From Candidatus Firestoneibacteriota bacterium (GTDB taxonomy: Bacteria > Oederibacteriota > D2-FULL-39-29): DNA of 64,000 nucleotides. The stretch lies in NCBI GenBank assembly GCA_903928075.1, contig CAIYPD010000115.1:371-64370 (forward strand), read 5' to 3'. The notes below the pieces were generated by a model, which ran no database searches, was not told where the DNA came from, and worked only from the letters and a program-made list of their open reading frames with translations. Numbering within the stretch: position 1 is the first letter of the stretch; each line of letters begins with the position of its first letter. The translations under genes were made by a program, and so were the position numbers. Shown piece after piece: positions 13,286 to 63,955 of the stretch.

Positions 13286-13320
13286 TGTCCGCCTTCAGCG
13301 AGATCTCGCCTAGTGGCGGA
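13286..13320. repeat. GAGATCTC-core nested palindromic element
   Basis: TGTCCGCC-ttca-GCGAGATCTCGC-ctagt-GGCGGA. Confidence 0.75.
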
Positions 13321-18663: not shown

Positions 18664-18750
18664 GTCCTCCAAAACTTTGTTTTGGAGAGATCTCGTCCAC
18701 CTTTGGTGAGATCTCGTCTGCCTAATGGCGAGACGGACTAAAGGCCGACA
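18664..18750. repeat. two adjacent degenerate GAGATCTC-core palindromic elements
   Basis: tggagagatctcgtcc, then ggtgagatctcgtc, then ggcgagacggac. Confidence 0.65.
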
Positions 18751-29407: not shown

Positions 29408-30235
29408 TTAGTATTTCAAATTGAAATTCTTGCCATAAGCTAAAAACTTTCTCAGTCTCTTATAGGATTTGGGATGCAGGAGAACAATAATAACGCCGCC
29501 AACAATATTCCCGAGCGTCACCGGAATAAGATTATGAAACATAGGAACCAACCCTTCAAGAAGCTCCCCTTTAATCATAAGAGCCGAGGGAAGGAAAAAC
29601 ATATTGGCAACAGAGTGTTCAAACCCGCCAATGATAAATACTGTTATGGGAAAGACTGTTGCGAGAATCTTGCCTTCCGTAGAAATTGAGGAAAGACTGA
29701 TGACTACCGCAAGACAGACCAGGATATTGCAAAGTATGCCTCTTAAAAAAGCGGGCCAAAATTCCAACGCCATCTTGGTATCTCCCGTTTTTACCAGAAA
29801 TTCGCCGAGTTTTGAAAGGCCCTCTCCGGAGAAAAAGTAGCCGGAACCAAAAACAAGAAAAACAACTAGAAGCGCACCGATAAAATTACCAAACCACACT
29901 ATCGCCCAGTTGCGAAGAATATGCACAAAAAAGAATTTTTTCTCAATGAATCCCGCAGTCATGAGCATATTGCCGGTAAAAAGTTCGGCGCCGGCCAAAA
30001 GAACCAGAATGAGACCGGTGGAAAAAACAACACCCGCGAACATCTTTGCCACACCGGGATCAGCGACTCCTCCGGCGAGAACAACGGAAGCTCCGACAGC
30101 GCCAAGCGCAATATAAAGCCCCGCAAGAATTGCATACATGAAAAGTTCAAAAAGAGTTAAACCGGCTTTTTTCTGGCCTATCCCGACCAGCGTATCATTT
30201 ATCTCTTTTGGTGTCAGCATCAGTGATTCGGGCAT
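29408..30235 (-). CDS. formate/nitrite transporter (FNT) family channel
   Basis: The ATG at 30235 has an AAGGAGAAAA RBS. The protein is polytopic with FNT-like motifs (LAGAELFTGN, GGFEHSVANMF). Confidence 0.85.
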   Translation of the reverse strand: MPESLMLTPKEINDTLVGIGQKKAGLTLFELFMYAILAGLYIALGAVGASVVLAGGVADPGVAKMFAGVVFSTGLILVLLAGAELFTGNMLMTAGFIEKKFFFVHILRNWAIVWFGNFIGALLVVFLVFGSGYFFSGEGLSKLGEFLVKTGDTKMALEFWPAFLRGILCNILVCLAVVISLSSISTEGKILATVFPITVFIIGGFEHSVANMFFLPSALMIKGELLEGLVPMFHNLIPVTLGNIVGGVIIVLLHPKSYKRLRKFLAYGKNFNLKY

Positions 30236-30262
30236 GATTTTTTCTCCTTTTTTAAAATGATT

Positions 30263-30297
30263 CACCGCCCTTGGCGAGATCTCACCGAAGGTGGACA
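30263..30297. repeat. GAGATCTC-core nested palindromic element
   Basis: CACCGCC-cttg-GCGAGATCTCAC-cgaag-GTGGACA. Confidence 0.75.
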
Positions 30298-30466
30298 CAG
30301 ATTACAAAACTTTTGATTACACTGATCAAATACAGAGAACATGGTACAAACAACAAGGAAAAACACTTTAATATGTTTCTCTTTACTTTCTTAACGGTCT
30401 CTTGTGCCTTGACCCTGCTTTTCTTTTTCACTTGCCAAACATCCAACCCTCTAACCCTCCAAACCT

Positions 30467-31135
30467 CTACTTAATGCTTACTACTTTTATTTTGAAGATC
30501 AGATCTTTTCCTGCAAGGAAATGATTAAAATCAAGCAGCACTCCATCGGCAACAATATCAACAATTACAGCCTGCATCGGCTGGCCATTCTGGTGCCTGA
30601 GACCCACTTCTGCGCCTTTCTCAAGTTTGTAATCCTTCGGGAAAAAATCCTTCGGAAACTTCTGAATCATCTTTTCATCCCGCTCCCCGTAGGCTTCAGA
30701 TGCCTTGATATTTAATATTCTTTCTTCGGCGAGTTTCATCCCGACAACCCCGCTGTCAAAACCTTTGATCATTTGTCCGGCCCCCACCGTAAAGCCCAGT
30801 GGTGCCCGGTCTTTGCTGCTGTCAAAGATTCTGCCGTCTTTTAAACTTCCCTCATATTCCACTTCTATCTTGTCCCCCACGCTAACGACTGTCTTTGCCA
30901 TAATTTTCTCCTCTGCTTTTGTTTTTGTTTCCGGCGTAAAAACATTATAGACAGGAGCAGGAGCTTGGACTTCTTTTTTACTAACTTCCGCCGTAACCGG
31001 AACGGTCTCTTTCTTTTCAACAGTTGTTGTTTTTACTTCAGGCAGCGCTGCCGTCTTTTTTTCCGCCGGAACTGTTGCACAACCCTGAATGAAAATGATC
31101 AAACCGGAAATGACCGCCAAATACTTTAGATTCAT
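30467..31135 (-). CDS. FKBP-type peptidyl-prolyl isomerase, SlyD-like with IF insert, predicted lipoprotein
   Basis: The lipobox FIQGC is followed by an FKBP core (VEYEGSLKDGRIFDSS...GFTVGAGQMIKGFD). An insert-in-flap segment comes next, and the protein ends FNHFLAGKDLIFKIKV. Confidence 0.85.
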   Translation of the reverse strand: MNLKYLAVISGLIIFIQGCATVPAEKKTAALPEVKTTTVEKKETVPVTAEVSKKEVQAPAPVYNVFTPETKTKAEEKIMAKTVVSVGDKIEVEYEGSLKDGRIFDSSKDRAPLGFTVGAGQMIKGFDSGVVGMKLAEERILNIKASEAYGERDEKMIQKFPKDFFPKDYKLEKGAEVGLRHQNGQPMQAVIVDIVADGVLLDFNHFLAGKDLIFKIKVVSIK

Positions 31136-31223
31136 ATTCTCTCCTTTTTAGGATTCCCCGCCGGATTTGGGCGGTATAGTGTCTGCCAAAGGAAAACCTT
31201 CGAAGACATGTGTAACGGCGTAT

Positions 31224-31252
31224 ATTATAAACCAGCAGTCAAACTTATGCAA
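31224..31252 (-). promoter_or_regulatory. sigma70-like promoter TTGCAT-17-TATAAT for the FKBP gene
   Basis: On the minus strand, TTGCAT is at 31252-31247 and TATAAT at 31229-31224. Confidence 0.4.
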
Positions 31253-31257
31253 CAATG

Positions 31258-31293
31258 AAAAACCCCGCTTCCAACAAGCAGTTAGAAGCGGGG
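31258..31293 (-). terminator. rho-independent terminator after the Cys-rich lipoprotein gene
   Basis: On the minus strand: CCCCGCTTC, a 13-nt loop, then GAAGCGGGG followed by TTTTT. The stem is a perfect 9 bp. Confidence 0.65.
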
Positions 31294-31367
31294 CATCATT
31301 CTTTTCCTTTCAAAATCCGCCTTTAGCGAGATCTCACAAGCACTCTCGGGCTAAAGCCGTATGGGGC

Positions 31368-32018
31368 TTACTTTGCGTACTTTTCGGGAGTCGCCATAAA
31401 TTTATCAGGGCAGCCGTTACAGCACATAAAATAGGCTTTGCCTTTATAATCTATCACCTGGGTAGCCGCAGTTACTTTAAACTTCTCTTTGGTCACCGGG
31501 CAGACGACTTCTTTGCCAATCTCCGCTTTTACAGCCTGTCTAACGGCCAGTTTCGCAGGATTCGCGCCTTTAACAGCGTCCTTTTTCATATCCTTCATAA
31601 CTCCGGGTTTCATACCTTTCATGTCCATCTTCATACAGGTACAGCCTTCTTTCCCGCAATTTTTCATGTCTTTCGCACAAACTTTACAATCTTTAGCGCA
31701 TACACAGGCAGCGGTTTTTCCGCTTGCTTTCATACAGGTACAGCCTTCTTTCCCGCAATTTTTCATGTCTTTCGCACAAACTTTACAATCTTTGGCACAT
31801 ACACAGGCCGCGGTTTTTCCGCTTGCTTTCATACAGGTGCAGCCTTCTTTCCCGCAATTCTTCATATCTTTCGCGCAAACTTTGCAATCTTTAGCGCAAA
31901 CACAGGCCATGGTCTTTTCCAGAGAACTCTCTTCAGAAACCGCAGCCTTCTGTCCGCATCCGCCAAGCAGCATAAAAGCAGCAAACAGCGGTAGAACCAA
32001 CAAACCTAACTTCTTCAT
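31368..32018 (-). CDS. Cys-rich tandem-repeat lipoprotein with Met-rich linker and C-terminal YHS domain (metallothionein-like)
   Basis: The lipobox LLGGC is followed by 3 x 33 aa (ACVCAKDCKVCAKDMKNCGKEGCTCMKASGKTA). Next come the linker MKMDMKGMKPGVMKDMKKD and a YHS/TRASH-like end (VCPVTKEKF...YKGKAYFMCCNGCPDKFMATPEKY). AAGGAGG RBS. Confidence 0.85.
   Translation of the reverse strand: MKKLGLLVLPLFAAFMLLGGCGQKAAVSEESSLEKTMACVCAKDCKVCAKDMKNCGKEGCTCMKASGKTAACVCAKDCKVCAKDMKNCGKEGCTCMKASGKTAACVCAKDCKVCAKDMKNCGKEGCTCMKMDMKGMKPGVMKDMKKDAVKGANPAKLAVRQAVKAEIGKEVVCPVTKEKFKVTAATQVIDYKGKAYFMCCNGCPDKFMATPEKYAK
31632..31928. repeat. 3 x 99-bp in-frame tandem repeat
   Basis: Unit starts are at 31632, 31731 and 31830. 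The copies differ by a few substitutions but encode identical peptides. Confidence 0.9.
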
Positions 32019-32077
32019 AATATACCTCCTTAAGGTAAACTTCTTCTTTAAGTGATTATATCAGAAATGCCCGAACT

Positions 32078-32106
32078 AATATATGTTAAAATTAAAACCG
32101 TGTCAA
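32078..32106 (-). promoter_or_regulatory. sigma70-like promoter TTGACA-17-TATATT for the Cys-rich lipoprotein gene
   Basis: On the minus strand, TTGACA is at 32106-32101 and TATATT at 32083-32078. Confidence 0.45.
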
Positions 32107-32154: not shown

Positions 32155-34734
32155 TTAACCGGCAGCCCTGGCTTGTCTATATTCCTTCTCAAGTTTCAAT
32201 GTCATAGTCTCAAGCGCAAATGTTTCTTCGGCGATTCTTCTGCCGTTTGCGCCCATTTCAAAAGCTTTATTTCTGATAACAAGGATACTTATCACTGCTT
32301 CGGAGAACTTTTTAATATCTCCGTATGAAAACACTTTTCCGTTAACCCCGTCCGTTATGAGTTCTGCGGCTACGCCGTTAGTCGCCACGACCGGTTTGCC
32401 CATGGCCATGGCCTGAATAAGACTTGTTCCCGGATCTTCAAATAAAGCGCACGAAACAATTAAATCGGCAGCGTCAACAACAGATGCAATGTCATTACGG
32501 AAGCCGGTAAATCTGAACTTGTCTTTCAAACCCAATTCCTCTATTTTAGCCTGCAGTCCCGCTTTATAGAGTTTATCCTTTTCGTCAAGCACGGCGCCTA
32601 CAAACATAAACTTGGCCTCCGGCAGGCTCCTGAGGATAAGCGGCGCGGCTTCGACAAGAGTTAACTGCCGTTTATTTTCGTTAATCCTCGCCACCAGCAC
32701 GATTACGGGTTCTTTATCAAGAAAACCGAATTCCTGACGGGCCGCTTGCCGGTATTTTCCGGGAAGCCATTCCGCTTTCAAGTCCAGGCCATTATAAATC
32801 GTAACGGTCCGTTTTGGATGGACGGGAAGCGTTTCCATAATATTCTTTCTAAATATTTCCTTTGAAGCTATGACTTTTACAACATTGGCAAACATCCAGG
32901 TATTAACAAGACCCATTTCCGCGCCGGATTTATAAGAATACTTACTTAAAATTATCGGGACCCGGTTGGCGAATCTGGACGCTAAAATAATATTTGAAAG
33001 ATCCGTTGTGGAATGCGAGTGTATTACCTGAATCCGGTATTTTAACAGTATTTTGTAGAGTTTATATATTTTAAAGGGGTTGGGGCGTATACCTATATCA
33101 ATATCATACAAAACAAAGCCTTCTTTCTCAGCCTTTTGATAGATGGTGGTACCTTTCTTTGCGGCTATTATTACCTTGTGCCCATGTTCTGCAAGTTGTT
33201 TTGAAATAGCAATGACATTCAGCTCTTTTATCTTAAAGGCGCCGGAAGAAACAATCTGCAGGATATTAAGATTACCCTGCCCTCTATTTGTTTCTCTTCT
33301 TCTTATAAGTTTTCCGACAACCCGCCCGGAAGAAGTAACAGGGAGAACCATATAGTCAAAAAGCACTCCCATCCCTTCGACGAAGCCGCCGGCAATACCC
33401 GAGCGCACCGAGCGGATAACTTTTTCCACACGCTCTTCCTGAGGTTCCAGTACTTTTTTTAGCAGTTTCATAGGAAAGGACCGCATGAACCCGCCAAGTA
33501 AAAAAATCAACTGAAAAGCACCGAAAGTATAATAGCCAAAATATCGGCCAAAATTAATATTCGCGGGACCTATGGAATCTATGAGCACGCCGGCAAGAAC
33601 AGGTCCTATAAAAGCCGTCACACTGGGAAAGAGCATATTAACAGACAAGAAATATGCCCGATCCTCTTTAGGGGCCAGTTTCAAGACAATGTTAAAAGCT
33701 CCGATATTATAACCGGCCCAGGCTATTCCGGCAATGACATATAAAACCGGGATTATAAAATAATAATTAAAAGGTGTTGTAATAAGCCAGAAAAACGGCA
33801 CTATTCCGACGACATTACCGCAAATCAGCATCACGGGCTTATTCCCGTACTTATCCGCCATCTTCCCCCAAAAAGGCGTAAGCGCGAGATTGGCCACCGT
33901 ACTTATAGTTCCAAACGCGGCTATCAGGGTATAGCTCATTTTAAGTTCTTTCAACATGAAAATATTCAGATAAACACCCATAAAAGAAAGCGCGAAGACC
34001 CAGGCCACATTAAACCAGACCAGGTTCATAAAGTTTTTTTCGGCAAACACCTTCCGGGTTTTTCTCCAAATAAGATCCAGGGAAAAATTATCTTTACTGG
34101 GTGCAGTATTCTTTGCGTCCGGCAACCGGTATAAAAGATAATAAGATATAAAACCGGCCAATGCGCCAATAACATAAATAGCCGTAAAACCAATATTCTT
34201 ATCCGGTACTTTATCCAAAAGCCTTCCTAATAATACACTGGCAAACATCGCAATAATTCCGGCAACTATAGATCTTCTGCCGAAATAAAAACCCCTTTCT
34301 TTTTCGGGGATAATATCGCTCATCCAGTTAGTCCAGGCAATAGAGGCCGGTATACTTATAACCGAAATTATAATAAAGAGCGCCACAAATAAAATTACCG
34401 GATGTGCGAAGCCGTTAAAAGCCACCAAGAAGGGAATGAGTGCCGGAATAACCCATAATAACCTGAGCGGAAATATTAGTTTGAGAGTTATTGCCTTTCT
34501 GGAAACCGCTCTTTCAATAAGATTTGAGGCAAAGGGCGCAATAATACTCGCCAGTACCGGTATTGTAGAAATTAAACCTATCTGTGTGTTGTTGGCACCA
34601 AGATGCAAAAGATAACCTGTTAAAAATAAACCGCCCTGAAATGTTACCAACCAGAGGATAATACCAAACACTATCTCCCAAAGAAAGTCATTGGAAACAC
34701 TGCCGGGCAATCCTGTATCTGTTTTGTTTTCCAT
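32155..34734 (-). CDS. fusion protein: N-terminal MFS transporter + C-terminal GT4 (GT-B) glycosyltransferase
   Basis: A single 859-aa ORF. Roughly residues 1-440 are polytopic and MFS-like. Roughly residues 480-859 carry GT4 hallmarks (HSHS..., VARINENKR, FEDPGTSLIQAMAMGKPVVAT). Confidence 0.8.
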   Translation of the reverse strand: MENKTDTGLPGSVSNDFLWEIVFGIILWLVTFQGGLFLTGYLLHLGANNTQIGLISTIPVLASIIAPFASNLIERAVSRKAITLKLIFPLRLLWVIPALIPFLVAFNGFAHPVILFVALFIIISVISIPASIAWTNWMSDIIPEKERGFYFGRRSIVAGIIAMFASVLLGRLLDKVPDKNIGFTAIYVIGALAGFISYYLLYRLPDAKNTAPSKDNFSLDLIWRKTRKVFAEKNFMNLVWFNVAWVFALSFMGVYLNIFMLKELKMSYTLIAAFGTISTVANLALTPFWGKMADKYGNKPVMLICGNVVGIVPFFWLITTPFNYYFIIPVLYVIAGIAWAGYNIGAFNIVLKLAPKEDRAYFLSVNMLFPSVTAFIGPVLAGVLIDSIGPANINFGRYFGYYTFGAFQLIFLLGGFMRSFPMKLLKKVLEPQEERVEKVIRSVRSGIAGGFVEGMGVLFDYMVLPVTSSGRVVGKLIRRRETNRGQGNLNILQIVSSGAFKIKELNVIAISKQLAEHGHKVIIAAKKGTTIYQKAEKEGFVLYDIDIGIRPNPFKIYKLYKILLKYRIQVIHSHSTTDLSNIILASRFANRVPIILSKYSYKSGAEMGLVNTWMFANVVKVIASKEIFRKNIMETLPVHPKRTVTIYNGLDLKAEWLPGKYRQAARQEFGFLDKEPVIVLVARINENKRQLTLVEAAPLILRSLPEAKFMFVGAVLDEKDKLYKAGLQAKIEELGLKDKFRFTGFRNDIASVVDAADLIVSCALFEDPGTSLIQAMAMGKPVVATNGVAAELITDGVNGKVFSYGDIKKFSEAVISILVIRNKAFEMGANGRRIAEETFALETMTLKLEKEYRQARAAG

Positions 34735-34921: not shown

Positions 34922-37372
34922 TTATGAGATAAACAGGTTGGTGTCTCCAAGTTCCGCGGAATTAAGGTATGTCGCCACGCCGCCGATTTCTATGCCTTCT
35001 ATCAATTCTTCTTTTACTATTCCCATCATATCCATTGACATCTGACAGGCCAGCAGCCGGACGCCTGCCGTTTTTGCCGCAAACATCATAGCTTCAAGTG
35101 AATCAATATTTTTCTTTTTCATTATAAAACGGATAAGCTTCGGACCGATGCCGAACATCTGCATCTGGGAAAGTTTCAACCTGAAAGTCCCCCGCGGCAG
35201 CATAAGGCCAAACATAAAATCGAAGAAACCTTTTTTCATTTTAGGAGCCTTCTTTTTCTTCAGAGCATTTAAACCCCAGAAGGTGAAGAACATAGTAACC
35301 TTTCTCCCCATCGAAGCTGCGCCGTTGGCAATTACGAAAGAAGCCAGTACTTTGTCTAATTCTCCGGAGAAAACAACAATGGTTTTATCATGAGGAATTT
35401 CCCCCGTAAAAGTTTTTTCCGCTCTCTTGCCTTTTTGGATTTTTGCGACAATCTTTTTATCCTTTTCTTCAACAGAAGCGAGCAAATTTCCGGTTGTTTC
35501 ACACCAGGAGGGAATATCATTTCTGAAGCCGGCATCTGTTGAGGTCACTTCCACAATATCGCCTTCCTCAATTTCCGCCATTTTCTTTGCGAGAGCCATA
35601 ATAGGCCCGGGACATTGCAGGCCGCAGGCATCGAGCTTGTAAATCGTGCCTTTTCCCGGGATTACCGTATTTACATCATCTCTTTTATCTATATAATGTC
35701 CCTGGAAAATGCCGACATTCTGCTGGGGCGCGGTGGCCACCTTGTAGAGTTTAAATCCACCGCTTAAGTCATAAACATTATTATATCCGCTGTTCCTTAA
35801 AACCGACTGGGCAAAGTAAGCCATCTTACCCTGATTGCAAACCAGTATTACTTTCTGCTCCCTCGGAATCTCGTTCATCCTCTTTCTTATTTCTGAAAAT
35901 GGAACATTGATAGAGCCGTCAATGTGTCCGAGCTCAAACTCCAGCACGCTTCGTACATCTACAAAAACCGCCTTTTCTTTTTTCAGGCCTTCAACATCTT
36001 CAAATGATACATACGGATTTCTTCCTTCCAGTTGATTTATAGCTATCATTGCCGCAAGATTAACCGGGTCCTTTGCCGAGGAGAAAGGCGGAGCATAAGC
36101 CAATTCCAATTTCGCCAGGTCATAGACCGTCCGGTGCAGTTGGACCATCACCGAGATTACATCAATTCTCTTGTCCACTCCCTCCGGGCCGATTATCTGC
36201 GCGCCCAGCACCCTGCCGTCAGCAGGGCTGTACAGAAATTTCATGTAAAGCGGAAAGGCGTCAGGATAGTAGCCCGCATGGGAGGACGGATTTAAATAGC
36301 ATTTATTATAAATTATTTTTCTTTTTTTAAGAAGTTTTTCACTGCTTCCCGTTGTGGCCGCTGCCAGATCAAAAACCTTGGCAATAGCGGTTCCGGGGGT
36401 ACTTTCATAAACTGCTTTGGCGCCCATAATATTATCTGCAACTATGCGCCCCTGTTTATTGGCCGCATTCGCCAGCGGAATGAGAGAAACACAGTCACAA
36501 GCACTGTCTTTGGTTTCAATAACATCGCCCAAAGCAAAGATCTCGGGATCTGAAGTTCTAAGGCCGGCCGAAACCTTTATGCCGCCTAAAGGACCCAGCT
36601 CCAGACCGGCTTCTTTTGCCAGCGTGGTCTCCGGTTTTACCCCGATGGAGAGAATGACAAAATCCGCTTCTATTTCATAACCGTTTTTTAATTTGAGTTT
36701 CAGGCCTGTTTCCGTTTTCTTTATTTCCGTTACTGCGTTTCCGAGAACCAACTCAACATTTTTTAGTTTAAGATGATCATGGATTACAGCGGCCATTTCC
36801 CCGTCGAGAACATTCAAGACCTGTTCGGCAAGTTCCACTATAGAAACCATCAGCCCGAGATGATGCATGTTCTCCGCCATCTCCAGCCCTATAAAACCGG
36901 CGCCGACTATTGCAGCCTTCTTCGGTTTATTTTCATTTATAAATTTCTTAACCAGGTCCATATCTGAAAGATTTCTTATGGTGAAAATGCGCGAGTCATT
37001 GATGCCGGGAATATCCGGCCGTATAGGCACGCCGCCCGGAGAAAGCACAAGTTTATCGTAACTCTCCTCGTAAACATTGTTATTTATATGGTCTTTGACT
37101 TTTACTTTTTTAGCCTTGCGGTCTATAGAAATTACCTCGGCTTGAGTCCGGACATCGACATTGAATTGATTGTTAAAAATTTCTTTAGAAACAATGGTGA
37201 GTTGGGAGCGGTCTTTTATAACATCCCCGAGATAATAAGGAATACCGCAGTTGGCATAAGATATCTCCGCGCCGCGTTCAAACATAATAATCTCATTTTT
37301 CTCGTCAAGCCGCCTTAAACGCGCAGCTGTGGAAGCGCCGCCGGCAACTCCGCCCACTATTACAATTTTCAT
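34922..37372 (-). CDS. CoA-disulfide/persulfide reductase-like flavoprotein fused to rhodanese, TusA-like and DsrE-like domains
   Basis: The N-terminus is VIVGGVAGGAS, with the redox Cys in ISYANCGIPYY. A rhodanese block follows (VFVDVRSVLEFELGHIDGSINVP...LVCNQG). Next is the TusA motif CGLQCPGPIM. The C-terminus is DsrE/F-like (IVVFSGELDKVLASFVIANGAA...). Confidence 0.85.
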   Translation of the reverse strand: MKIVIVGGVAGGASTAARLRRLDEKNEIIMFERGAEISYANCGIPYYLGDVIKDRSQLTIVSKEIFNNQFNVDVRTQAEVISIDRKAKKVKVKDHINNNVYEESYDKLVLSPGGVPIRPDIPGINDSRIFTIRNLSDMDLVKKFINENKPKKAAIVGAGFIGLEMAENMHHLGLMVSIVELAEQVLNVLDGEMAAVIHDHLKLKNVELVLGNAVTEIKKTETGLKLKLKNGYEIEADFVILSIGVKPETTLAKEAGLELGPLGGIKVSAGLRTSDPEIFALGDVIETKDSACDCVSLIPLANAANKQGRIVADNIMGAKAVYESTPGTAIAKVFDLAAATTGSSEKLLKKRKIIYNKCYLNPSSHAGYYPDAFPLYMKFLYSPADGRVLGAQIIGPEGVDKRIDVISVMVQLHRTVYDLAKLELAYAPPFSSAKDPVNLAAMIAINQLEGRNPYVSFEDVEGLKKEKAVFVDVRSVLEFELGHIDGSINVPFSEIRKRMNEIPREQKVILVCNQGKMAYFAQSVLRNSGYNNVYDLSGGFKLYKVATAPQQNVGIFQGHYIDKRDDVNTVIPGKGTIYKLDACGLQCPGPIMALAKKMAEIEEGDIVEVTSTDAGFRNDIPSWCETTGNLLASVEEKDKKIVAKIQKGKRAEKTFTGEIPHDKTIVVFSGELDKVLASFVIANGAASMGRKVTMFFTFWGLNALKKKKAPKMKKGFFDFMFGLMLPRGTFRLKLSQMQMFGIGPKLIRFIMKKKNIDSLEAMMFAAKTAGVRLLACQMSMDMMGIVKEELIEGIEIGGVATYLNSAELGDTNLFIS

Positions 37373-38016: not shown

Positions 38017-38127
38017 TTTCGCTATGCTCAACTTCTCATAATTCATCTTGTTTTTCTTCTATCTATTATCTATTGCTCTACTCCGCCCTCGGTCTTTCGC
38101 CTTTCGTCCTTAGTTCTTGCTAAGCCT

Positions 38128-38216
38128 CTCCGCCAAAGTTATTTGGCGAGATCTCGCCGCAGGCGGACAAACATCTCCGCCAAGTTAGCTTGGCGAGATC
38201 TCGCTGAAGGCGGACA
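38128..38216. repeat. two tandem full copies of the GAGATCTC-core nested palindromic element
   Basis: The copy at 38128-38169 reads CTCCGCC-aaagttattt-GGCGAGATCTCGCC-gca-GGCGGACA. The copy at 38175-38216 reads CTCCGCC-aagttagctt-GGCGAGATCTCGCT-gaa-GGCGGACA. Confidence 0.85.
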
Positions 38217-38221
38217 ACCCT

Positions 38222-39445: not shown

Positions 39446-39781
39446 TTATTTATTTTTTAATTTTCTTTTACCGTTTTTCGGCGCCACTTTATTAACATAG
39501 TCCCAGTAAGAATCTTTTGTCAGGGGCTTTCTTTTAACCTCAAGTTCGGCAGTTTCTGCTAAAATTGCAATTTTTTTATTGATAATAAACTGCAGGCAGT
39601 TAGGCACATGGTTGCCGAAATACCTATGCTGCATAACACAATGGTAACAGTCCCCGTGCCATTCGCATTTCTTCTTGGGACAGGTGCATTTATTGTATTT
39701 ACCTTCAGCCATCATACTGCGAATTTTCTTAATTACTTTTACAAACTTTTGTTTTGTCACCGGACTCCTCCCTGACTTCAT
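39446..39781 (-). CDS. small Cys/His-rich protein (DUF6485-like)
   Basis: CTCPKKKCEWHGDCYHCVMQHRYFGNHVPNC motif. The true start may be the internal MM at about residue 23. Confidence 0.6.
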   Translation of the reverse strand: MKSGRSPVTKQKFVKVIKKIRSMMAEGKYNKCTCPKKKCEWHGDCYHCVMQHRYFGNHVPNCLQFIINKKIAILAETAELEVKRKPLTKDSYWDYVNKVAPKNGKRKLKNK

Positions 39782-40726: not shown

Positions 40727-40800
40727 TCCGGGGTAGTGTAATGGTAACACAGCGGCCTTTGACGTCGCACTTCGTGGTTCGAGCCCACGCCCCGGAGCCA
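40727..40800 (+). tRNA. tRNA-Gln (anticodon UUG), CCA encoded
   Basis: Cloverleaf folded by hand. The acceptor stem TCCGGGG/CCCCGGA has 7 bp and the D stem is GTGT/ACAC. The anticodon stem GCGGC/GTCGC carries the loop C-T-TTG-A-C. The T arm is CGTGG-TTCGAGC-CCACG. The discriminator is G, followed by CCA. 74 nt in total. Confidence 0.9.
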
Positions 40801-52245: not shown

Positions 52246-52346
52246 TGTATTTCCCCCTTGAGTACTTGAATGTGTTGATTTTAACATAATGCGGGCAGAA
52301 ATCAAAGCATTTAAGGCTCTACACAAAATTAAGGGCTTTTCCTTTA

Positions 52347-52374
52347 TTGACAATCTCGGGCTTATTGATATAAT
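52347..52374 (+). promoter_or_regulatory. sigma70-like promoter TTGACA-16-TATAAT for the 918-aa secreted protein
   Basis: TTGACA at 52347-52 and TATAAT at 52369-74. Confidence 0.45.
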
Positions 52375-52465
52375 CAAGCATAGGCTGGTGCTTATTTTGA
52401 AAATAATATACTCCATTCCTACACGCAAAAGAATTAGTTTATTTACGCTTTTTCCGGAGGGAGCT

Positions 52466-63205: not shown

Positions 63206-63955
63206 TTATCCTACCAGCACCATTAACGCCATCATTCCTATCCCGAGGCAGATGCAAAAAAACTGTATTATAGATTTAACCACTCCATTCTCCGCGTAAA
63301 GTTCAGGGAGCAGATCGGAACCCGCAAGATAAATAAAACCCCCGGCCGTTATAGGAAGCAGAGCCAGTTTAAAACCTTCCGAAATATTTCCTATCATAAG
63401 TGTGACAATAGCGCCGAAAATAGCGGCCAGCGCCGAAAGAAAATTAAAAATTAGAGCTTTTTTTATAGGCAAGCCGCCGTGAATAAGCGCCGAAAAATCT
63501 CCGACTTCATGAGGTATTTCATGAAGAACCACTGCGATAGTGGTGGCTATACCCAGATGAATATCCACAAGATAGCTGGCGGCAATAACCATACCGTCAA
63601 TAAAATTATGAAAGGTATCCCCGGCAAGTATTATTACCACAAAAGGCTTGGAATGGCCTTCACAGTATTCTTTATGGCAGGTACGCCATCTTATGGCTTT
63701 TTCCAGTAAGAAAAATATCATTATCCCGGTAAGGATATATATGGGTACGGCTAAACTCTCGGTACCCAGCTTGCTGAAGGATTCGGGTATAAGATGGATG
63801 AAAGCATCGCCGAATAAGGCCCCTATCGCAAAGCAGACAAAAAAGAGAAGGACTTTTTTCAGAGTTTCCTGTTTAAACGCAAGGGTAAGGACACCGATAA
63901 GAGAAATGAGACTTACAACGATAACGCTTATTAGAGTATATCCCCAAATATGCAC
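63206..63955 (-). CDS. ZIP-family metal transporter (ZupT-like)
   Basis: Polytopic, with the HEIPHEVGDF motif. Confidence 0.85.
   Translation of the reverse strand: MHIWGYTLISVIVVSLISLIGVLTLAFKQETLKKVLLFFVCFAIGALFGDAFIHLIPESFSKLGTESLAVPIYILTGIMIFFLLEKAIRWRTCHKEYCEGHSKPFVVIILAGDTFHNFIDGMVIAASYLVDIHLGIATTIAVVLHEIPHEVGDFSALIHGGLPIKKALIFNFLSALAAIFGAIVTLMIGNISEGFKLALLPITAGGFIYLAGSDLLPELYAENGVVKSIIQFFCICLGIGMMALMVLVG

What the first reader, a model, noticed from the sequence alone, without database searches (positions are those of the whole stretch)
31368..32018. Metallothionein-like lipoprotein built from three 99-bp tandem repeats plus a Met-rich linker and a YHS domain
The 216-aa product has four parts:
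- a lipobox (LLGGC);
- three identical 33-aa modules, ACVCAKDCKVCAKDMKNCGKEGCTCMKASGKTA, each with 7 Cys;
- a Met-rich stretch, MKMDMKGMKPGVMKDMKKD;
- a C-terminal YHS/TRASH-like motif, VCPVTKEKF...YKGKAYFMCCNGCPDKFMATPEKY.

The whole protein has about 26 Cys. The three DNA copies start at 31632, 31731 and 31830. They differ at several positions (3 of 99 between the first two), yet the encoded peptides are identical. That pattern points to purifying selection on the repeat peptide rather than an assembly artefact.

The gene appears monocistronic, with its own TTGACA-17-TATATT promoter and a strong terminator. CxC-rich modules, Met-rich motifs and YHS domains are each associated with soft-metal (Cu/Zn/Cd) binding. 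I do not recognise an exported lipoprotein combining all three, so it may be a new class of envelope metal buffer or chaperone.
Basis: partly seen in the sequence, partly recalled or inferred. Interest (0 to 1): 0.72.

Follow-up and report, generated by a model that had tools for sequence, protein, structure and literature searches.

The report
Exported cysteine-repeat YHS metal-binding lipoprotein
An uncultured anaerobe (Candidatus Firestonebacteria) encodes a real, selectively maintained, membrane-tethered secreted protein that joins three metallothionein-like 7-cysteine repeats and a methionine-rich stretch to a YHS metal-binding domain; it is most likely a copper(I) sponge and chaperone outside the cytoplasm, a combination not described before but not tested experimentally.

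Summary
ORF 31368-32018(-) encodes a 216-aa protein with these parts:
- a Sec signal and lipobox;
- a 99-bp tandem array (2.9 copies) giving three 7-Cys modules, the third lacking its 6-aa spacer;
- a Met-rich stretch;
- a YHS domain above Pfam's threshold.

All nucleotide differences between copies are synonymous. Across orthologues the module is at least as constrained as the YHS domain.

The Cys module matches no Pfam, NCBIfam or PDB entry. In 1.84 billion representative proteins it occurs only in about ten Firestonebacteria proteins, which carry 1, 2 or 3 modules.

New findings:
- One relative has a split version: two adjacent lipoprotein genes, Cys module and YHS.
- The YHS part belongs to a widespread, uncharacterised family of ~100-aa exported YHS proteins from uncultured, mostly anaerobic phyla.
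- One family member sits inside a csoR-like/CusA-CzcA-type RND efflux operon. Other members are fused to HMBD or to Met/His-rich segments.
- A 2-module allele exists with two different breakpoints.

Best reading: an envelope-tethered thiolate/thioether buffer and chaperone for a soft metal, probably Cu(I). It is a new variant of known kinds, not a proven new class. The metal and the function are inferred. The choice between 2 and 3 copies needs reads.

The parts
32078..32106 (-). Sigma-70-like promoter TTGACA-17-TATATT (11 of 12 matches)
   Evidence: It is not clearly conserved in the orthologous upstream region of L008.
32055..32063 (-). Alternative extended -10 (TGATATAAT), about 36 nt upstream of the ATG
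   Evidence: The motif TTTCTGATAWAAT is shared with L008, which has CTGATAAAAT at the same place. This is inference from conservation only.
32025..32031 (-). Shine-Dalgarno AAGGAGG. The block TTTACCTTAAGGAGGTA is conserved in all orthologous loci.
31368..32018 (-). Coding sequence of the 216-aa protein, stop codon included
   Evidence: Identical DNA occurs in L001-L003 from independent metagenomes.
31956..32018 (-). Sec-type signal peptide with lipobox (MKKLGLLVLPLFAAFMLLGG|C). There is no twin-arginine motif.
   Evidence: Sequence inspection. Sub-threshold NCBIfam hits to lipoprotein signal models cover aa 1-24 and 1-36. The lipobox Cys is present in P0004, P0020, P0028 and many small YHS relatives, but is replaced by Met or Ser in P0002, P0003 and P0005-P0009.
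31809..31907 (-). Cys module 1 (aa 38-70): ACVCAKDCKVCAKDMKNCGKEGCTCMK plus spacer ASGKTA
31710..31808 (-). Cys module 2 (aa 71-103). The peptide is identical to module 1, with 9 synonymous nucleotide differences.
   Evidence: dS about 0.8, dN 0.
31629..31709 (-). Cys module 3 (aa 104-130). The 27-aa core is identical and the spacer is missing.
   Evidence: dS about 0.26 against module 2, dN 0.
31578..31634 (-). Met-rich stretch MKMDMKGMKPGVMKDMKKD (aa 129-147)
   Evidence: Orthologues carry Met/His versions, for example MKGMDHSKMKGKM in P0006.
31371..31553 (-). YHS/TRASH-type treble-clef domain (aa 156-216), with Cys173, Cys199, Cys200 and Cys203
   Evidence: - Pfam PF04945: 34.8 bits against GA 30.3.
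- AF2 pLDDT is about 84-94 over aa 161-216.
- Foldseek top hits are the C-terminal region of phenol, toluene and methane monooxygenase alpha subunits, probability 0.99; the phmmer alignment places the match at residues ~412-448 of phenol hydroxylase.
- The four Cys are invariant in the family and the subfamily.
31316..31337 (-). REP-like palindromic element in the 3' UTR (GTGAGATCTCGCTAAAGGCGGA)
   Evidence: 7 copies in the window against 0.01 expected. It is absent from the L008 3' UTR.
31262..31294 (-). Intrinsic terminator (14-bp stem, 8 GC pairs, T-run)
   Evidence: An equivalent terminator follows the gene in L008, L009, L011, L017 and L019.

Best explanation
**What it is.** The gene encodes a Sec-exported protein that stays tethered to a membrane on the extracytoplasmic side. 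In this lineage the tether is an N-terminal lipid on Cys21. In most orthologues it is probably an uncleaved or differently processed signal anchor.

**How it most likely works.** The mature protein binds soft metal ions, most likely Cu(I), at three kinds of site arranged in series.
1. Three metallothionein-like 7-Cys modules (CxCx3Cx2Cx6Cx4CxC, Lys-rich, no aromatic residues or His). These are disordered without metal and would fold around metal-thiolate clusters. They provide high-capacity, high-affinity storage.
2. A flexible Met-rich (in orthologues Met/His-rich) segment of the type that captures and passes on Cu(I) in periplasmic copper proteins.
3. A C-terminal YHS/TRASH treble-clef domain with four invariant Cys and a conserved acidic residue. 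This would be a single-site docking and transfer unit.

The ancestral unit is a ~100-aa exported YHS lipoprotein. The Cys module and the Met-rich stretch were added between the lipobox and the YHS domain, and the module was then amplified in tandem. Module number (1-3) sets capacity. Keeping this many thiols reduced outside the cytoplasm is feasible because the organism lives in anoxic water.

**Shown here:**
- the gene, the repeat and purifying selection on it;
- YHS membership;
- the export signal (by sequence);
- the restricted taxonomic range;
- the fusion/fission relationship;
- the contexts of relatives.

**Inferred:**
- metal binding itself;
- Cu(I) as the metal;
- the buffer/chaperone role;
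- the redox state of the thiols.
For: **The gene is real and constrained.**
- All 9 differences between copies 1 and 2, and all 3 between copies 2 and 3, are synonymous. dS is 0.80 and 0.26 respectively, and dN is 0.
- Between orthologues the last module has dN 0.02-0.12 with saturated dS. That is no higher than the YHS domain's 0.18-0.20.
- The core Cx2Cx6Cx4CxC is invariant in every module of every family member.

**Metallothionein-like composition.**
- Each module has 7 Cys in 27 aa, is Lys-rich and has no aromatic residues or His.
- AF2 gives pLDDT below 50 for most of the modules and about 90 for the YHS domain.

**YHS domain.**
- Pfam scores it above the gathering threshold, and the fold match is to known YHS domains.
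- YHS/TRASH domains are proposed metal binders. Cu2+ activates an M. phlei adenylyl cyclase only when its YHS domain is present, and L24e TRASH binds Cd via the conserved Cys (PMC4626032).

**Export.**
- The N-terminus has MKK, a 15-residue hydrophobic core and LLGGC, with no RR motif.
- The nearest YHS relatives are almost all ~80-111-aa proteins with signal peptides, lipoboxes or signal anchors.

**Rosetta stone.** In L019 the same locus holds two adjacent lipoprotein genes 4 nt apart.
- P0020 has a signal nearly identical to the window protein's, one Cys module and an Ala/Pro/Lys tail.
- P0028 has its own lipobox and a YHS domain.
- The same terminator-FKBP-FNT neighbourhood follows.

**Copper-type evidence from relatives.**
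- P0120 (WOR-1) lies 2 nt after a CusA/CzcA-family RND pump (1058.6 bits against a 701.45 cutoff).
- That pump sits in an operon that starts with a CsoR-family repressor. Its best NCBIfam hit is the Cu sensor RicR, and it has a Cys...His-x3-Cys pattern.
- Downstream of P0120 come MsrA, a YHS-fused ArsP_1 permease resembling SO_0444 Cu/Zn efflux proteins, and a 107-aa protein with 21 Met.
- P0012 combines a His-rich segment, a YHS domain and two HMBD domains (PF19335, 76.8 bits).
- P0010 and P0011 are lipoproteins with a Met-rich segment and two YHS domains.
- Orthologues contain MKGMDHSKMKGKM and MKGMDHGNMKGM. From memory, these resemble the MDHSxMxGM repeats of Pseudomonas syringae CopA.

**Comparison with known proteins.** According to a 2020 review (PMC7558416):
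- known bacterial metallothioneins such as SmtA and MymT are cytosolic;
- the only exported thiolate-rich Cu store is the Tat-dependent four-helix-bundle Csp1.
Against: - There is no experimental or metal-specific computational evidence for this protein.
- Nothing within about 30 kb in the window is a metal-resistance or cuproenzyme gene. The conserved neighbours are an exported SlyD-like FKBP and an FNT channel, each with its own promoter and terminator.
- Two other small YHS relatives sit next to rubrerythrin/ferritin-like and NifS/NifU/DsrE/TusA genes rather than metal pumps.
- Two Firestonebacteria lineages have a Bcp-type peroxiredoxin 12-23 nt upstream. This fits a redox role as well as it fits a need to keep thiols reduced.
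- In the phenol hydroxylase structure the YHS domain is, from memory, a structural Zn site. In toluene-4-monooxygenase it is empty (PMC4626032).
- The CusA/CzcA model does not distinguish Cu/Ag from Zn/Co/Cd pumps.
- The lipobox is not conserved across the family.
- The low pLDDT of the modules may simply reflect a 10-sequence alignment.
Confidence: 0.55

Rival explanations
1. The architecture and location are the same, but the physiological ligand is a thiophilic divalent metal rather than Cu(I): Zn(II), Cd(II), Hg(II), or possibly Ni or Co. The modules would form M(II)-thiolate clusters as in Zn/Cd-metallothioneins, and the YHS domain would be a Cys4 zinc-finger-like site. The protein would buffer or scavenge these metals in a sulfidic, metal-poor or Hg-bearing anoxic lake.
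For: - Cys4 treble-clef sites usually bind Zn. L24e TRASH binds Cd in crystals (PMC4626032).
- The best structural matches are the YHS domains of phenol hydroxylase. From memory, this one holds Zn.
- The RND pump next to P0120 is typed only as CusA/CzcA family, and the neighbouring permease resembles 'Cu/Zn efflux' proteins.
- An ArsR/SmtB-type regulator and an ArsP_1 permease lie near P0080.
- Firestonebacteria are listed among putative Hg methylators (bioRxiv 10.1101/2020.01.16.909358).
- A YHS protein lies next to hgcA/merR in Nitrospina (bioRxiv 10.1101/648329).
Against: - Met-rich and Met/His motifs of the MxxMxHxxM / MDHxxMxGM kind are, by established knowledge, hallmarks of Cu(I)/Ag(I) handling rather than Zn or Cd.
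- The regulator in L024 has the Cys-His-Cys pattern of Cu(I)-sensing CsoR, and its best hit is RicR.
- HMBD fusions are typical of Cu/Ag systems.
- No Hg or Zn gene lies beside the gene. The only ZIP transporter is 31 kb away.
Confidence: 0.2
2. The protein is an extracytoplasmic thiol/thioether redox buffer or a sulfane-sulfur (persulfide/polysulfide) carrier rather than a metal buffer. The Cys and Met residues would scavenge peroxide or oxidants, or shuttle sulfur, and would work with peroxiredoxin, MsrA and TusA/DsrE-type partners.
For: - A membrane-anchored Bcp/PrxQ-type peroxiredoxin lies 12-23 nt upstream in L009, L010 and L017.
- Small YHS relatives lie next to rubrerythrin and ferritin-like genes (L023) and directly after DsrE_2 and TusA (L022).
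- In the window a CoA-disulfide reductase-rhodanese-TusA-DsrE_2 fusion lies two genes upstream. An FNT channel, a family that includes hydrosulfide channels, lies two genes downstream.
- MsrA lies in the L024 cluster.
Against: - The YHS/TRASH domain, the HMBD fusions and the RND/CsoR context point to metals.
- Rigid conservation of Cys spacing (Cx2Cx6Cx4CxC) is expected for cluster geometry, not for sacrificial thiols.
- The neighbouring genes in the window have their own promoters and terminators. Upstream neighbours vary between lineages, so the linkage is weak.
- Oxidative-stress and copper regulons overlap in anaerobes, so these contexts do not exclude a metal role.
Confidence: 0.1
3. The Cys modules are disulfide-knotted structural or spacer repeats of a surface lipoprotein. 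Only the YHS domain would be functional, for example as a protein-protein interaction zinc finger, and there would be no multi-metal storage.
For: - Exported Cys-rich repeats are often disulfide-bonded.
- In P0020 the module is followed by an Ala/Pro/Lys spacer-like tail.
- AF2 gives no fold for the modules.
Against: - Each module has an odd number of Cys (7), including adjacent CxC pairs that are poor disulfide partners.
- The composition is metallothionein-like, with Lys flanking the Cys and no hydrophobic core residues.
- The habitat is anoxic.
- Sequence constraint is extreme, which would be unusual for a spacer.
Confidence: 0.05
4. The third repeat copy, or alternatively the 2-copy form, is an assembly artefact rather than biology.
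For: - A 183-aa form lacking exactly one 33-aa unit occurs on 12 contigs. The four with DNA are all MEGAHIT k141 contigs.
- Truncated gene calls that start inside the repeats (88, 121 and 154 aa) show that contigs often break there.
- Three of the 2-copy loci have flanks 99.93-99.98% identical to the window.
Against: - The 3-copy gene is base-for-base identical in at least 3 further independent assemblies from different projects and assemblers (L001-L003), and it occurs on 14 contigs.
- The longest exact repeat between copies is 65 nt. That is shorter than typical reads and the k-mers used, so the array can be resolved.
- Two different 2-copy alleles exist. One (L007) is in a strain whose upstream flank is only 98.3% identical.
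- Both 2-copy alleles derive from the 3-copy allele by a single 99-bp deletion, but the reverse derivation does not work. This fits real recombination as well as graph collapse.
- Copy number also varies from 1 to 2 among species with diverged modules.
Confidence: 0.1

Closest known systems
Small exported YHS-domain proteins ('YHS domain-containing protein', ~80-111 aa; uncharacterised) of Firestonebacteria, Elusimicrobia, WOR-1, WOR-3, Omnitrophota, Planctomycetota, Nitrospiria and others
   Same: - The C-terminal 62-69 aa are 45-78% identical. They share the invariant motif E-x-G-K-x(3)-C-P-V...Y-K-G-K-x-Y-[FY]-x-C-C-x(2)-C...P-E-K-Y.
- Members have an N-terminal signal peptide, lipobox or anchor.
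- P0028 sits at the same syntenic position, before FKBP and FNT.
   Different: These proteins have only a short Ala/Pro/Ser linker between the signal and the YHS domain. The window protein has about 135 extra residues there: three Cys modules and a Met-rich stretch. None of these proteins has been studied experimentally, as far as the searched literature shows.
YHS / TRASH metal-binding domains (PF04945; Ettema et al. 2003). Examples: the M. phlei adenylyl cyclase YHS Cu sensor, the N-termini of Cu-ATPases, the phenol/toluene monooxygenase alpha C-terminal domain, and L24e
   Same: - The Pfam match is above threshold.
- The treble-clef fold is predicted with high confidence.
- The conserved Cys triad and an acidic residue three positions before the first Cys are present (PMC4626032; PMC4999995).
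   Different: - The literature describes YHS as a cytosolic domain (PMC4626032). Here it is exported.
- The eponymous His and Ser are replaced by Lys and Cys, giving a CCxxC motif and a fourth Cys.
- The first-to-second Cys spacing is 25 residues, against 19-22 in the TRASH consensus (from memory).
- The window protein does not reach any TRASH Pfam model.
Metallothioneins: bacterial SmtA/BmtA and MymT, and (from memory) fungal Cu-MTs such as Neurospora with 7 Cys in 25 aa
   Same: - The units are short and Cys-rich (26%).
- They are Lys-rich and free of aromatic residues, with CxC and CxxC motifs.
- They are predicted to be disordered without metal.
- They are modular and tandemly amplified, as MT genes and domains often are.
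   Different: - There is no detectable sequence similarity to any MT family in Pfam or PDB.
- Known bacterial MTs are cytosolic (PMC7558416). This protein has a Sec/lipoprotein signal and is fused to Met-rich and YHS parts.
Csp1, the exported copper storage protein of methanotrophs
   Same: It is an extracytoplasmic, Cys-thiolate-based, high-capacity Cu(I) store with Met/His residues at its entry end (PMC7558416). This is functionally the closest precedent.
   Different: Csp1 is a pre-folded four-helix bundle tetramer exported by Tat. Here there is a Sec signal, no helices are predicted, the units are repeats, and there is no Csp-family Pfam hit.
Periplasmic Cu(I) chaperones and Met-rich copper proteins: CusF of cusCFBA, and the Met-rich regions of CopA/PcoA/CueO and PcoC/CopC
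   Same: - Met-rich (Met/His in orthologues) segments are present.
- A subfamily member (P0120) occupies a CusF-like position in a csoR-like-OEP-MFP-RND operon.
   Different: There is no OB-fold or cupredoxin homology. Those proteins avoid Cys in the oxidising periplasm, whereas this one is dominated by Cys.
NosL, the Cu(I)-binding lipoprotein that matures N2O reductase
   Same: It is a lipoprotein whose fold derives from duplicated TRASH-like treble clefs and that binds Cu(I) (PMC4999995; function from memory).
   Different: There is no NosL Pfam hit. The window protein has a single intact Cys-bearing YHS domain, no nos genes lie nearby, and NosL has no Cys-rich repeats.

Membership tests
YHS domain (Pfam PF04945) | Profile score at or above the Pfam gathering threshold | tested here: met
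   34.8 bits against 30.3, over aa 179-215. P0006 scores 33.7, P0010 53.2 and P0012 42.8.
YHS domain (Pfam PF04945) | Three conserved Cys plus one conserved acidic residue as putative ligands (PMC4626032) | tested here: met
   Cys173, Cys199/200 and Cys203 are invariant in alignments A1 and A2. Glu170 (Asp in some members) lies three residues before Cys173. The eponymous His and Ser are replaced by Lys and Cys.
YHS domain (Pfam PF04945) | Treble-clef-type small beta/alpha fold | tested here: met
   AF2 pLDDT is 84-94 for aa 161-216. The best Foldseek PDB hits are the C-terminal YHS region of phenol hydroxylase (2inn/2inp, probability 0.98-0.99) and other monooxygenase alpha subunits, plus L24e. 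E-values are weak (0.06-0.9) because the domain is short.
TRASH domain (Ettema et al. 2003; Pfam PF08394 and PF24273) | C-x(19-22)-C-x3-C spacing (from memory) and a profile match | tested here: not met
   The spacing here is C-x25-C-x3-C. No TRASH model hit the window protein at E<=1. Relatives P0010-P0012 do hit the TRASH models weakly. The protein is therefore filed as YHS, a TRASH-related domain, and not as TRASH proper.
Metallothionein (any Pfam/PDB family) | Sequence similarity to a recognised MT family | tested here: not met
   - No MT family hit at E<=1 for the whole protein, or at E<=10 for the module region.
- No PDB chain at E<=10.
- phmmer against 1.84 billion representatives found only family members and low-complexity noise.
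Metallothionein (operational definition) | Small Cys-rich unit (15-30% Cys) with CxC/CxxC motifs and no aromatic residues or His | tested here: met
   There are 7 Cys in the 27-aa core (26%). The pattern is CxCx3Cx2Cx6Cx4CxC. Residues 38-130 contain no Phe, Tyr, Trp or His.
Metallothionein (operational definition) | Formation of metal-thiolate clusters | not testable with these tools
   This needs metal titration, ESI-MS and spectroscopy of the purified protein.
Bacterial lipoprotein | Signal peptide with a positively charged n-region, a hydrophobic core and a lipobox [LVI][ASTVIG][GAS]C | tested here: inconclusive
   - MKK + LGLLVLPLFAAFMLL + GG|C fits the relaxed lipobox pattern by inspection.
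- The only hits are sub-threshold matches to lipoprotein-signal models (E 0.019 and 0.086).
- No SignalP/LipoP-type tool was available.
- The Cys is absent from 7 of 9 orthologues.
Csp copper storage proteins | Four-helix bundle lined with Cys; Tat signal for Csp1 | tested here: not met
   AF2 predicts no helical bundle, there is no RR motif, and no Csp-family Pfam hit.
NosL | Profile match to the NosL family and a nos gene-cluster context | tested here: not met
   There is no NosL hit in Pfam or NCBIfam, and no nos genes in the window or in related loci.
Heavy-metal efflux accessory (CusF-like role) | Encoded within a metal-regulated RND efflux operon | tested here: not met
   This is not true for the window gene or its Firestonebacteria orthologues. 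It is true for the subfamily member P0120 in WOR-1. This supports 'works like' but not membership.

The most novel reading that the evidence does not exclude
This would be the first Sec-exported, membrane-tethered metallothionein: an extracytoplasmic thiolate-cluster metal store that is possible only because the cell envelope of this anaerobe stays reduced.

It would be built from an orphan 7-Cys module that arose within Firestonebacteria. The module works either as a separate lipoprotein next to a YHS lipoprotein or fused to it. Its copy number (1-3, polymorphic 2/3 within one population) would tune metal capacity through repeat-mediated recombination.

The ~100-aa exported YHS lipoproteins that are widespread in uncultured anaerobes would then be a previously unrecognised family of envelope Cu(I) chaperones.
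Probability: 0.35. Interest if true: 0.75.

Novelty: new variant of a known kind. Interest (0 to 1): 0.58.

Why it matters
Current accounts of bacterial copper handling hold two things. Thiolate-rich stores (metallothioneins, Csp3) are cytosolic. The periplasm relies on Met/His ligands because Cys would oxidise there. The one exported exception, Csp1, is a pre-folded Tat substrate.

A Sec-exported, lipid-anchored protein with 21 module Cys, a Met-rich arm and a YHS domain suggests that anaerobes use a different, thiol-based chemistry outside the cytoplasm.

It also gives a first functional handle on a large uncharacterised family of small exported YHS proteins in candidate phyla. These are linked here to a CsoR/RND operon and to HMBD and Met-rich fusions.

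The locus is also a clean natural example of three processes in one place:
- birth of a domain;
- tandem amplification under strong purifying selection;
- gene fusion or fission.

If metal binding is confirmed, the 27-aa module would be a compact new metal-binding tag. It would also be relevant to Cu and Hg cycling in anoxic lakes.

Tried and rejected
**Known families for the Cys module.**
- Pfam at E<=1 and E<=10, NCBIfam, and PDB sequence search at E<=10 gave nothing.
- phmmer of the module region against 1.84 billion representatives returned only family members, the split-gene protein P0020, a frameshifted fragment (P0018) and repetitive or low-complexity eukaryote-like proteins (P0019, P0021-P0025). 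The last group was judged spurious.

**Structure of the modules.**
- AF2 with the 10-sequence family alignment gave pLDDT below 50 for most of the module region (short stretches reach the 50s), so no fold inference is possible.
- Foldseek matched only the YHS part.

**Antisense ORFs (275 aa at 31167-31994 and 188 aa at 31489-32055, + strand).** These were rejected.
- They are by-products of a Lys/Cys/Ala-rich sense frame that avoids antisense stop codons.
- Their length is not conserved in orthologues.
- The differences between repeat copies are synonymous only in the minus-strand frame.

**Fe-S protein or c-type cytochrome.** Rejected: the signal is Sec rather than Tat, the protein has no His at all, and there is no CxxCH motif.

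**Operon or guilt-by-association in the window.**
- No metal gene lies within about 30 kb.
- No riboswitch or other RNA family lies near the gene.
- The FKBP and FNT neighbours are syntenic but are separately transcribed units.

**Annotated plasmids.** tblastn of the YHS part gave one irrelevant weak hit.

**Single-sequence word-indexed search with the YHS part.** It returned only 3 candidates. A profile of 10 diverse domains was needed to reveal the 673-member subfamily.

**Deriving the 3-copy allele from a 2-copy allele by one unequal crossover.** Rejected: it would need 3 extra substitutions. Both 2-copy alleles follow from the 3-copy allele by a single 99-bp deletion (reasoning).


Full report
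**1. The observation**

The minus strand of 31368-32018 carries an ATG-started ORF of 216 codons. A strong Shine-Dalgarno sequence (AAGGAGG, 32025-32031) precedes it. The scan found a TTGACA-17-TATATT site at 32106-32078 and a terminator with a 14-bp stem at 31294-31262.

The product has 26 Cys, 16 Met, 41 Lys and no His or Trp. Tandem Repeats Finder reports one array at 31630-31920 with period 99, 2.9 copies, 92% matches and score 496. It is by far the strongest repeat in the window.

In codon register, the 27-aa core ACVCAKDCKVCAKDMKNCGKEGCTCMK occurs three times (aa 38, 71 and 104). The 6-aa spacer ASGKTA follows only the first two. The third core runs directly into MKMDMKGMKPGVMKDMKKD (aa 129-147).

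Pfam finds a YHS domain above the gathering threshold (34.8 against 30.3 bits, aa 179-215). The only correction is that the third module is truncated.

**2. Which strand codes, and whether the gene is under selection**

Longer ORFs exist on the plus strand (275 and 188 aa). They are a side effect of a Lys/Cys/Ala-rich sense frame that avoids antisense stop codons. Open antisense stretches of variable length (139-280 aa) occur in all orthologues.

The differences between repeat copies settle the frame:
- Copy 1 vs copy 2 has 9 differences, all at third positions and synonymous in the minus-strand frame.
- Copy 2 vs copy 3 has 3 differences, all synonymous.
- Only 18.5% of sites are synonymous, so 9 of 9 by chance has a probability of about 3e-7. 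This ignores transition bias.
- Nei-Gojobori estimates are dS about 0.80 (copies 1/2) and 0.26 (copies 2/3), with dN = 0.

The first duplication is therefore old and the third copy is younger. The peptide has been held identical throughout.

Between orthologues synonymous sites are saturated. The last module has dN 0.02-0.12, which is no higher than the YHS domain at about 0.18-0.20. The YHS value is slightly inflated by a 1-aa indel in my slicing.

**3. Relatives of the whole protein**

A search of 5.8 billion proteins found only 12 hits. Nine share the architecture:
- P0001 is the same protein with two modules (183 aa).
- P0002, P0003 and P0005-P0007 are 53-56% identical and have two modules that are more or less diverged.
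- P0004, P0008 and P0009 have one module.

The core Cx2Cx6Cx4CxC is invariant in every module. The N-terminal CxC varies (CxC, CxxC or CxxxC). Orthologues carry Met/His-rich versions of the Met stretch, for example MKGMDHSKMKGKM in P0006 and MKGMDHGNMKGM in P0002.

Only the window protein and P0004 keep the lipobox Cys. The others read LLSGMGKK or LLSGSAGK. They are probably anchored or processed differently, but they still have the n-region and hydrophobic core of an export signal.

A scan of one genome per GTDB species found four loci, all Candidatus Firestonebacteria. Two of them (L015, L016) encode a 105-aa lipoprotein consisting of a lipobox, an Ala-rich linker and a YHS domain only.

**4. 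The Cys module is an orphan**

- The module region has no match in Pfam, including all metallothionein families, at E<=10.
- It has no match in NCBIfam, and none to any PDB chain at E<=10.
- phmmer of the module region against 1.84 billion representative proteins returned 9 hits. These were family members, a frameshifted fragment, repetitive or low-complexity proteins that I regard as noise, and one informative protein, P0020.

**5. A split, two-gene version**

P0020 (98 aa) has three parts:
- a signal/lipobox almost identical to the window protein's (MKKFGLLVLPLFVAALMLSGC);
- one Cys module;
- an Ala/Pro/Lys-rich tail, with no YHS domain.

In locus L019 it is followed after 4 nt by P0028 (102 aa). 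P0028 is a lipoprotein with its own signal and a YHS domain about 75% identical to the window's. A terminator, the FKBP gene and (on a longer contig) the FNT gene come next.

The fused window protein therefore corresponds to two adjacent, independently exported lipoproteins in a relative. This is classical fusion/fission evidence that the two parts act together in the same compartment. It also independently supports extracytoplasmic localisation.

**6. Copy-number variation**

The 3-module gene is base-for-base identical in three further assemblies from different projects (L001-L003) and occurs on 14 contigs. The 2-module form occurs on 12 contigs. Its DNA shows two different alleles:
- L004-L006 have copy 1 followed by a hybrid of the copy 2 head and the copy 3 tail.
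- L007 has copy 1 (ending with copy 2's last base) followed by copy 3.

Each allele is one 99-bp deletion away from the 3-copy allele, through an exact repeat of 65 nt or 29 nt. The reverse derivation would need extra substitutions.

The flanks of L004-L006 are 99.93-99.98% identical to the window. L007's upstream flank is 98.3% identical, so it is another strain.

Exact repeats of 65 nt or less should be resolvable by the assemblers used, and one allele sits in a distinct strain. I therefore lean towards real recombinational polymorphism. Graph collapse cannot be excluded without reads, because all four 2-copy loci with DNA are MEGAHIT k141 contigs. Several truncated gene calls (88, 121 and 154 aa) show that contigs often break inside the array.

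**7. Structure**

AF2 on the family alignment gives pLDDT of about 84-94 for aa 161-216. This region has three short strands, a beta-hairpin and two helices. Most of the modules and the Met stretch score below 50.

Foldseek against the PDB matches only the YHS part. The best hits are the C-terminal region of phenol hydroxylase and other diiron monooxygenase alpha subunits (probability 0.98-0.99, E 0.06-0.2), with L24e further down. phmmer finds the same phenol hydroxylase segment.

The literature places YHS with TRASH in the treble-clef zinc-finger group, from which NosL and MerB are thought to derive (PMC4999995). It also reports YHS-dependent Cu2+ activation of an M. phlei adenylyl cyclase (PMC4626032). 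That paper describes YHS as cytosolic. A predicted periplasmic YHS domain is mentioned for C. jejuni FetA (PMC10783030).

**8. The YHS part belongs to a large exported subfamily**

A profile of ten diverse domains (A2) retrieved 673 proteins. The best 120 are nearly all 80-111 aa long. Where named, they are called 'YHS domain-containing protein'. They come from Firestonebacteria, Elusimicrobia, WOR-1, WOR-3, Omnitrophota, Planctomycetota, Nitrospiria, Saganbacteria and similar uncultured lineages.

The sequences sampled have signal peptides with lipoboxes, or N-terminal anchors, and the FCCxxC motif.

Other architectures in the subfamily:
- P0010 and P0011: a lipobox, a Met-rich segment and two YHS domains.
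- P0012: a signal, a His-rich segment, a YHS domain and two HMBD domains (PF19335, 76.8 bits).
- P0086 and P0087: a YHS domain plus HMBD.

**9. Genomic context**

In the window and all Firestonebacteria orthologues, the gene is followed by an exported SlyD-like FKBP isomerase and a FocA-like FNT channel. Each has its own promoter and a terminator in between.

Upstream neighbours vary:
- an MFS-glycosyltransferase fusion in the window and L008;
- a GT87 gene in L011;
- a membrane-anchored Bcp/PrxQ-type peroxiredoxin only 12-23 nt upstream in L009, L010 and L017.

No metal-resistance or cuproenzyme gene lies nearby. A ZIP transporter lies 31 kb away.

Contexts of subfamily members elsewhere are mixed.
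- The most telling is WOR-1 locus L024. It runs: a CsoR-family repressor (best hit the Cu sensor RicR; Cys...His-x3-Cys present), OEP, a CzcB/CusB-like adaptor, a CusA/CzcA-family RND pump (1058.6 bits against a 701.45 cutoff), and then the YHS protein 2 nt later.
- The same locus continues with a cupin, MsrA, a YHS-fused ArsP_1 permease resembling SO_0444 Cu/Zn efflux proteins, and a 107-aa membrane protein with 21 Met.
- In WOR-3 the YHS gene lies near an Rrf2 regulator, an ArsP_1 permease and an ArsR-type regulator.
- In Elusimicrobia it follows NifS, NifU, DsrE_2 and TusA, among rubrerythrin genes.
- In Planctomycetota it precedes rubrerythrin and ferritin-like genes.

**10. Interpretation**

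The best-supported reading is an envelope-tethered soft-metal buffer and chaperone:
- metallothionein-like thiolate modules for capacity;
- a Met (or Met/His) arm for capture and hand-over;
- a YHS single site for docking and transfer.

I favour Cu(I) for four reasons:
- the Met/His motifs;
- the HMBD fusions;
- the CsoR-type/RND operon;
- the published Cu dependence of a YHS domain.

Under anoxia Cu is present as Cu(I). Exported thiols can stay reduced there, which removes the usual objection to Cys ligands outside the cytoplasm.

None of this has been measured. Zn, Cd or Hg binding is the main rival. Firestonebacteria are listed among putative Hg methylators, and a YHS protein neighbours hgcA in Nitrospina. 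A redox or sulfur-carrier role is a second rival, suggested by the peroxiredoxin, rubrerythrin and TusA/DsrE neighbours.

**11. Comparison with known proteins, and novelty**

- Membership in the YHS family is met.
- TRASH proper, every metallothionein family, Csp and NosL fail the sequence tests.
- The protein resembles metallothioneins only in composition and motif style.

According to a 2020 review, bacterial metallothioneins are cytosolic. The only exported thiolate-rich Cu store is the Tat-dependent four-helix-bundle Csp1 (PMC7558416).

I rate this as a new variant of known kinds: an exported YHS lipoprotein elaborated with an orphan, tandemly amplified 7-Cys module and a Met-rich arm. It is not a demonstrated new class.

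Interest is moderate to high (0.58):
- for: the architecture, the split/fused pair, the selection pattern and the unrecognised exported YHS family would interest metal-homeostasis specialists and can be tested directly;
- against: the organism is uncultured, the family is tiny, and the function rests on inference.

Noticed in passing
window 13288-13309, 18696-18717, 30264-30295, 31316-31337, 38127-38217: A dispersed REP-like palindromic element (GCGAGATCTCGC-N4-GGCGGA) has 7 hits with up to 3 mismatches, against 0.01 expected. One copy lies in the 3' UTR of the YHS gene. Two form a 47-nt tandem at 38127-38217. The element is absent from the orthologous 3' UTR in L008.
   Followed up: partly
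L019 286-894 (also the ERZ1426847 contig): A split version of the gene. P0020 (98-aa lipoprotein: one Cys module and an Ala/Pro/Lys tail) and P0028 (102-aa lipoprotein: YHS domain) are adjacent genes 4 nt apart, at the same syntenic position.
   Followed up: yes
L009 7445-7978, L010 4862-5395, L017 4191-4736: A membrane-anchored Bcp/PrxQ-type peroxiredoxin (GCTAEAC motif) lies 12-23 nt upstream of the Cys-module YHS gene in two Firestonebacteria lineages. It is probably co-transcribed. It is absent from this position in the window.
   Followed up: partly
L024 203-8754 (WOR-1): A putative copper cluster: a CsoR-like repressor, OEP, an adaptor, a CusA/CzcA RND pump, a small YHS protein, a cupin, MsrA, a YHS-fused ArsP_1 permease, and a 107-aa membrane protein with 21 Met (MMGQGMMNKGMMMDQDQMNKMM...).
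   Followed up: partly
window 34922-37372 (-): An 816-aa fusion of CoA-disulfide reductase, rhodanese, TusA and DsrE_2, which looks like a persulfide/polysulfide reductase. A flavodoxin lies upstream of it. In Elusimicrobia locus L022, separate DsrE_2 and TusA genes lie just upstream of a small YHS lipoprotein, separated from it by one 75-aa gene.
   Followed up: no
window 32155-34734 (-): An 859-aa fusion of an MFS transporter and a GT4 glycosyltransferase. It is called as two separate genes (324 and 509 aa) in the otherwise near-identical contig L003, which suggests a frameshift or stop variant in that population.
   Followed up: no
window 52289-55222 (+): A 977-aa ORF with an N-terminal hydrophobic segment and no Pfam match at E<=1e-5.
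   Followed up: no
window 39446-39781 (-): A 111-aa basic protein with a Cys/His cluster (CTCPKKKCEWHGDCYHCVMQH) and no Pfam match. It sits between two SAM-methyltransferase genes and a GNAT gene.
   Followed up: no
window 30467-31135 (-): An exported (lipobox IQGC) SlyD-like FKBP isomerase. It is always found immediately downstream of the YHS gene in Firestonebacteria and is followed by a FocA-like FNT channel (29408-30298). Both appear to be separately transcribed.
   Followed up: partly
window 63206-63955 (-), 40727-40800 (+): A ZIP-family metal transporter lies at the window edge, and there is a single tRNA-Gln(TTG). No other Rfam family occurs in the window.
   Followed up: no
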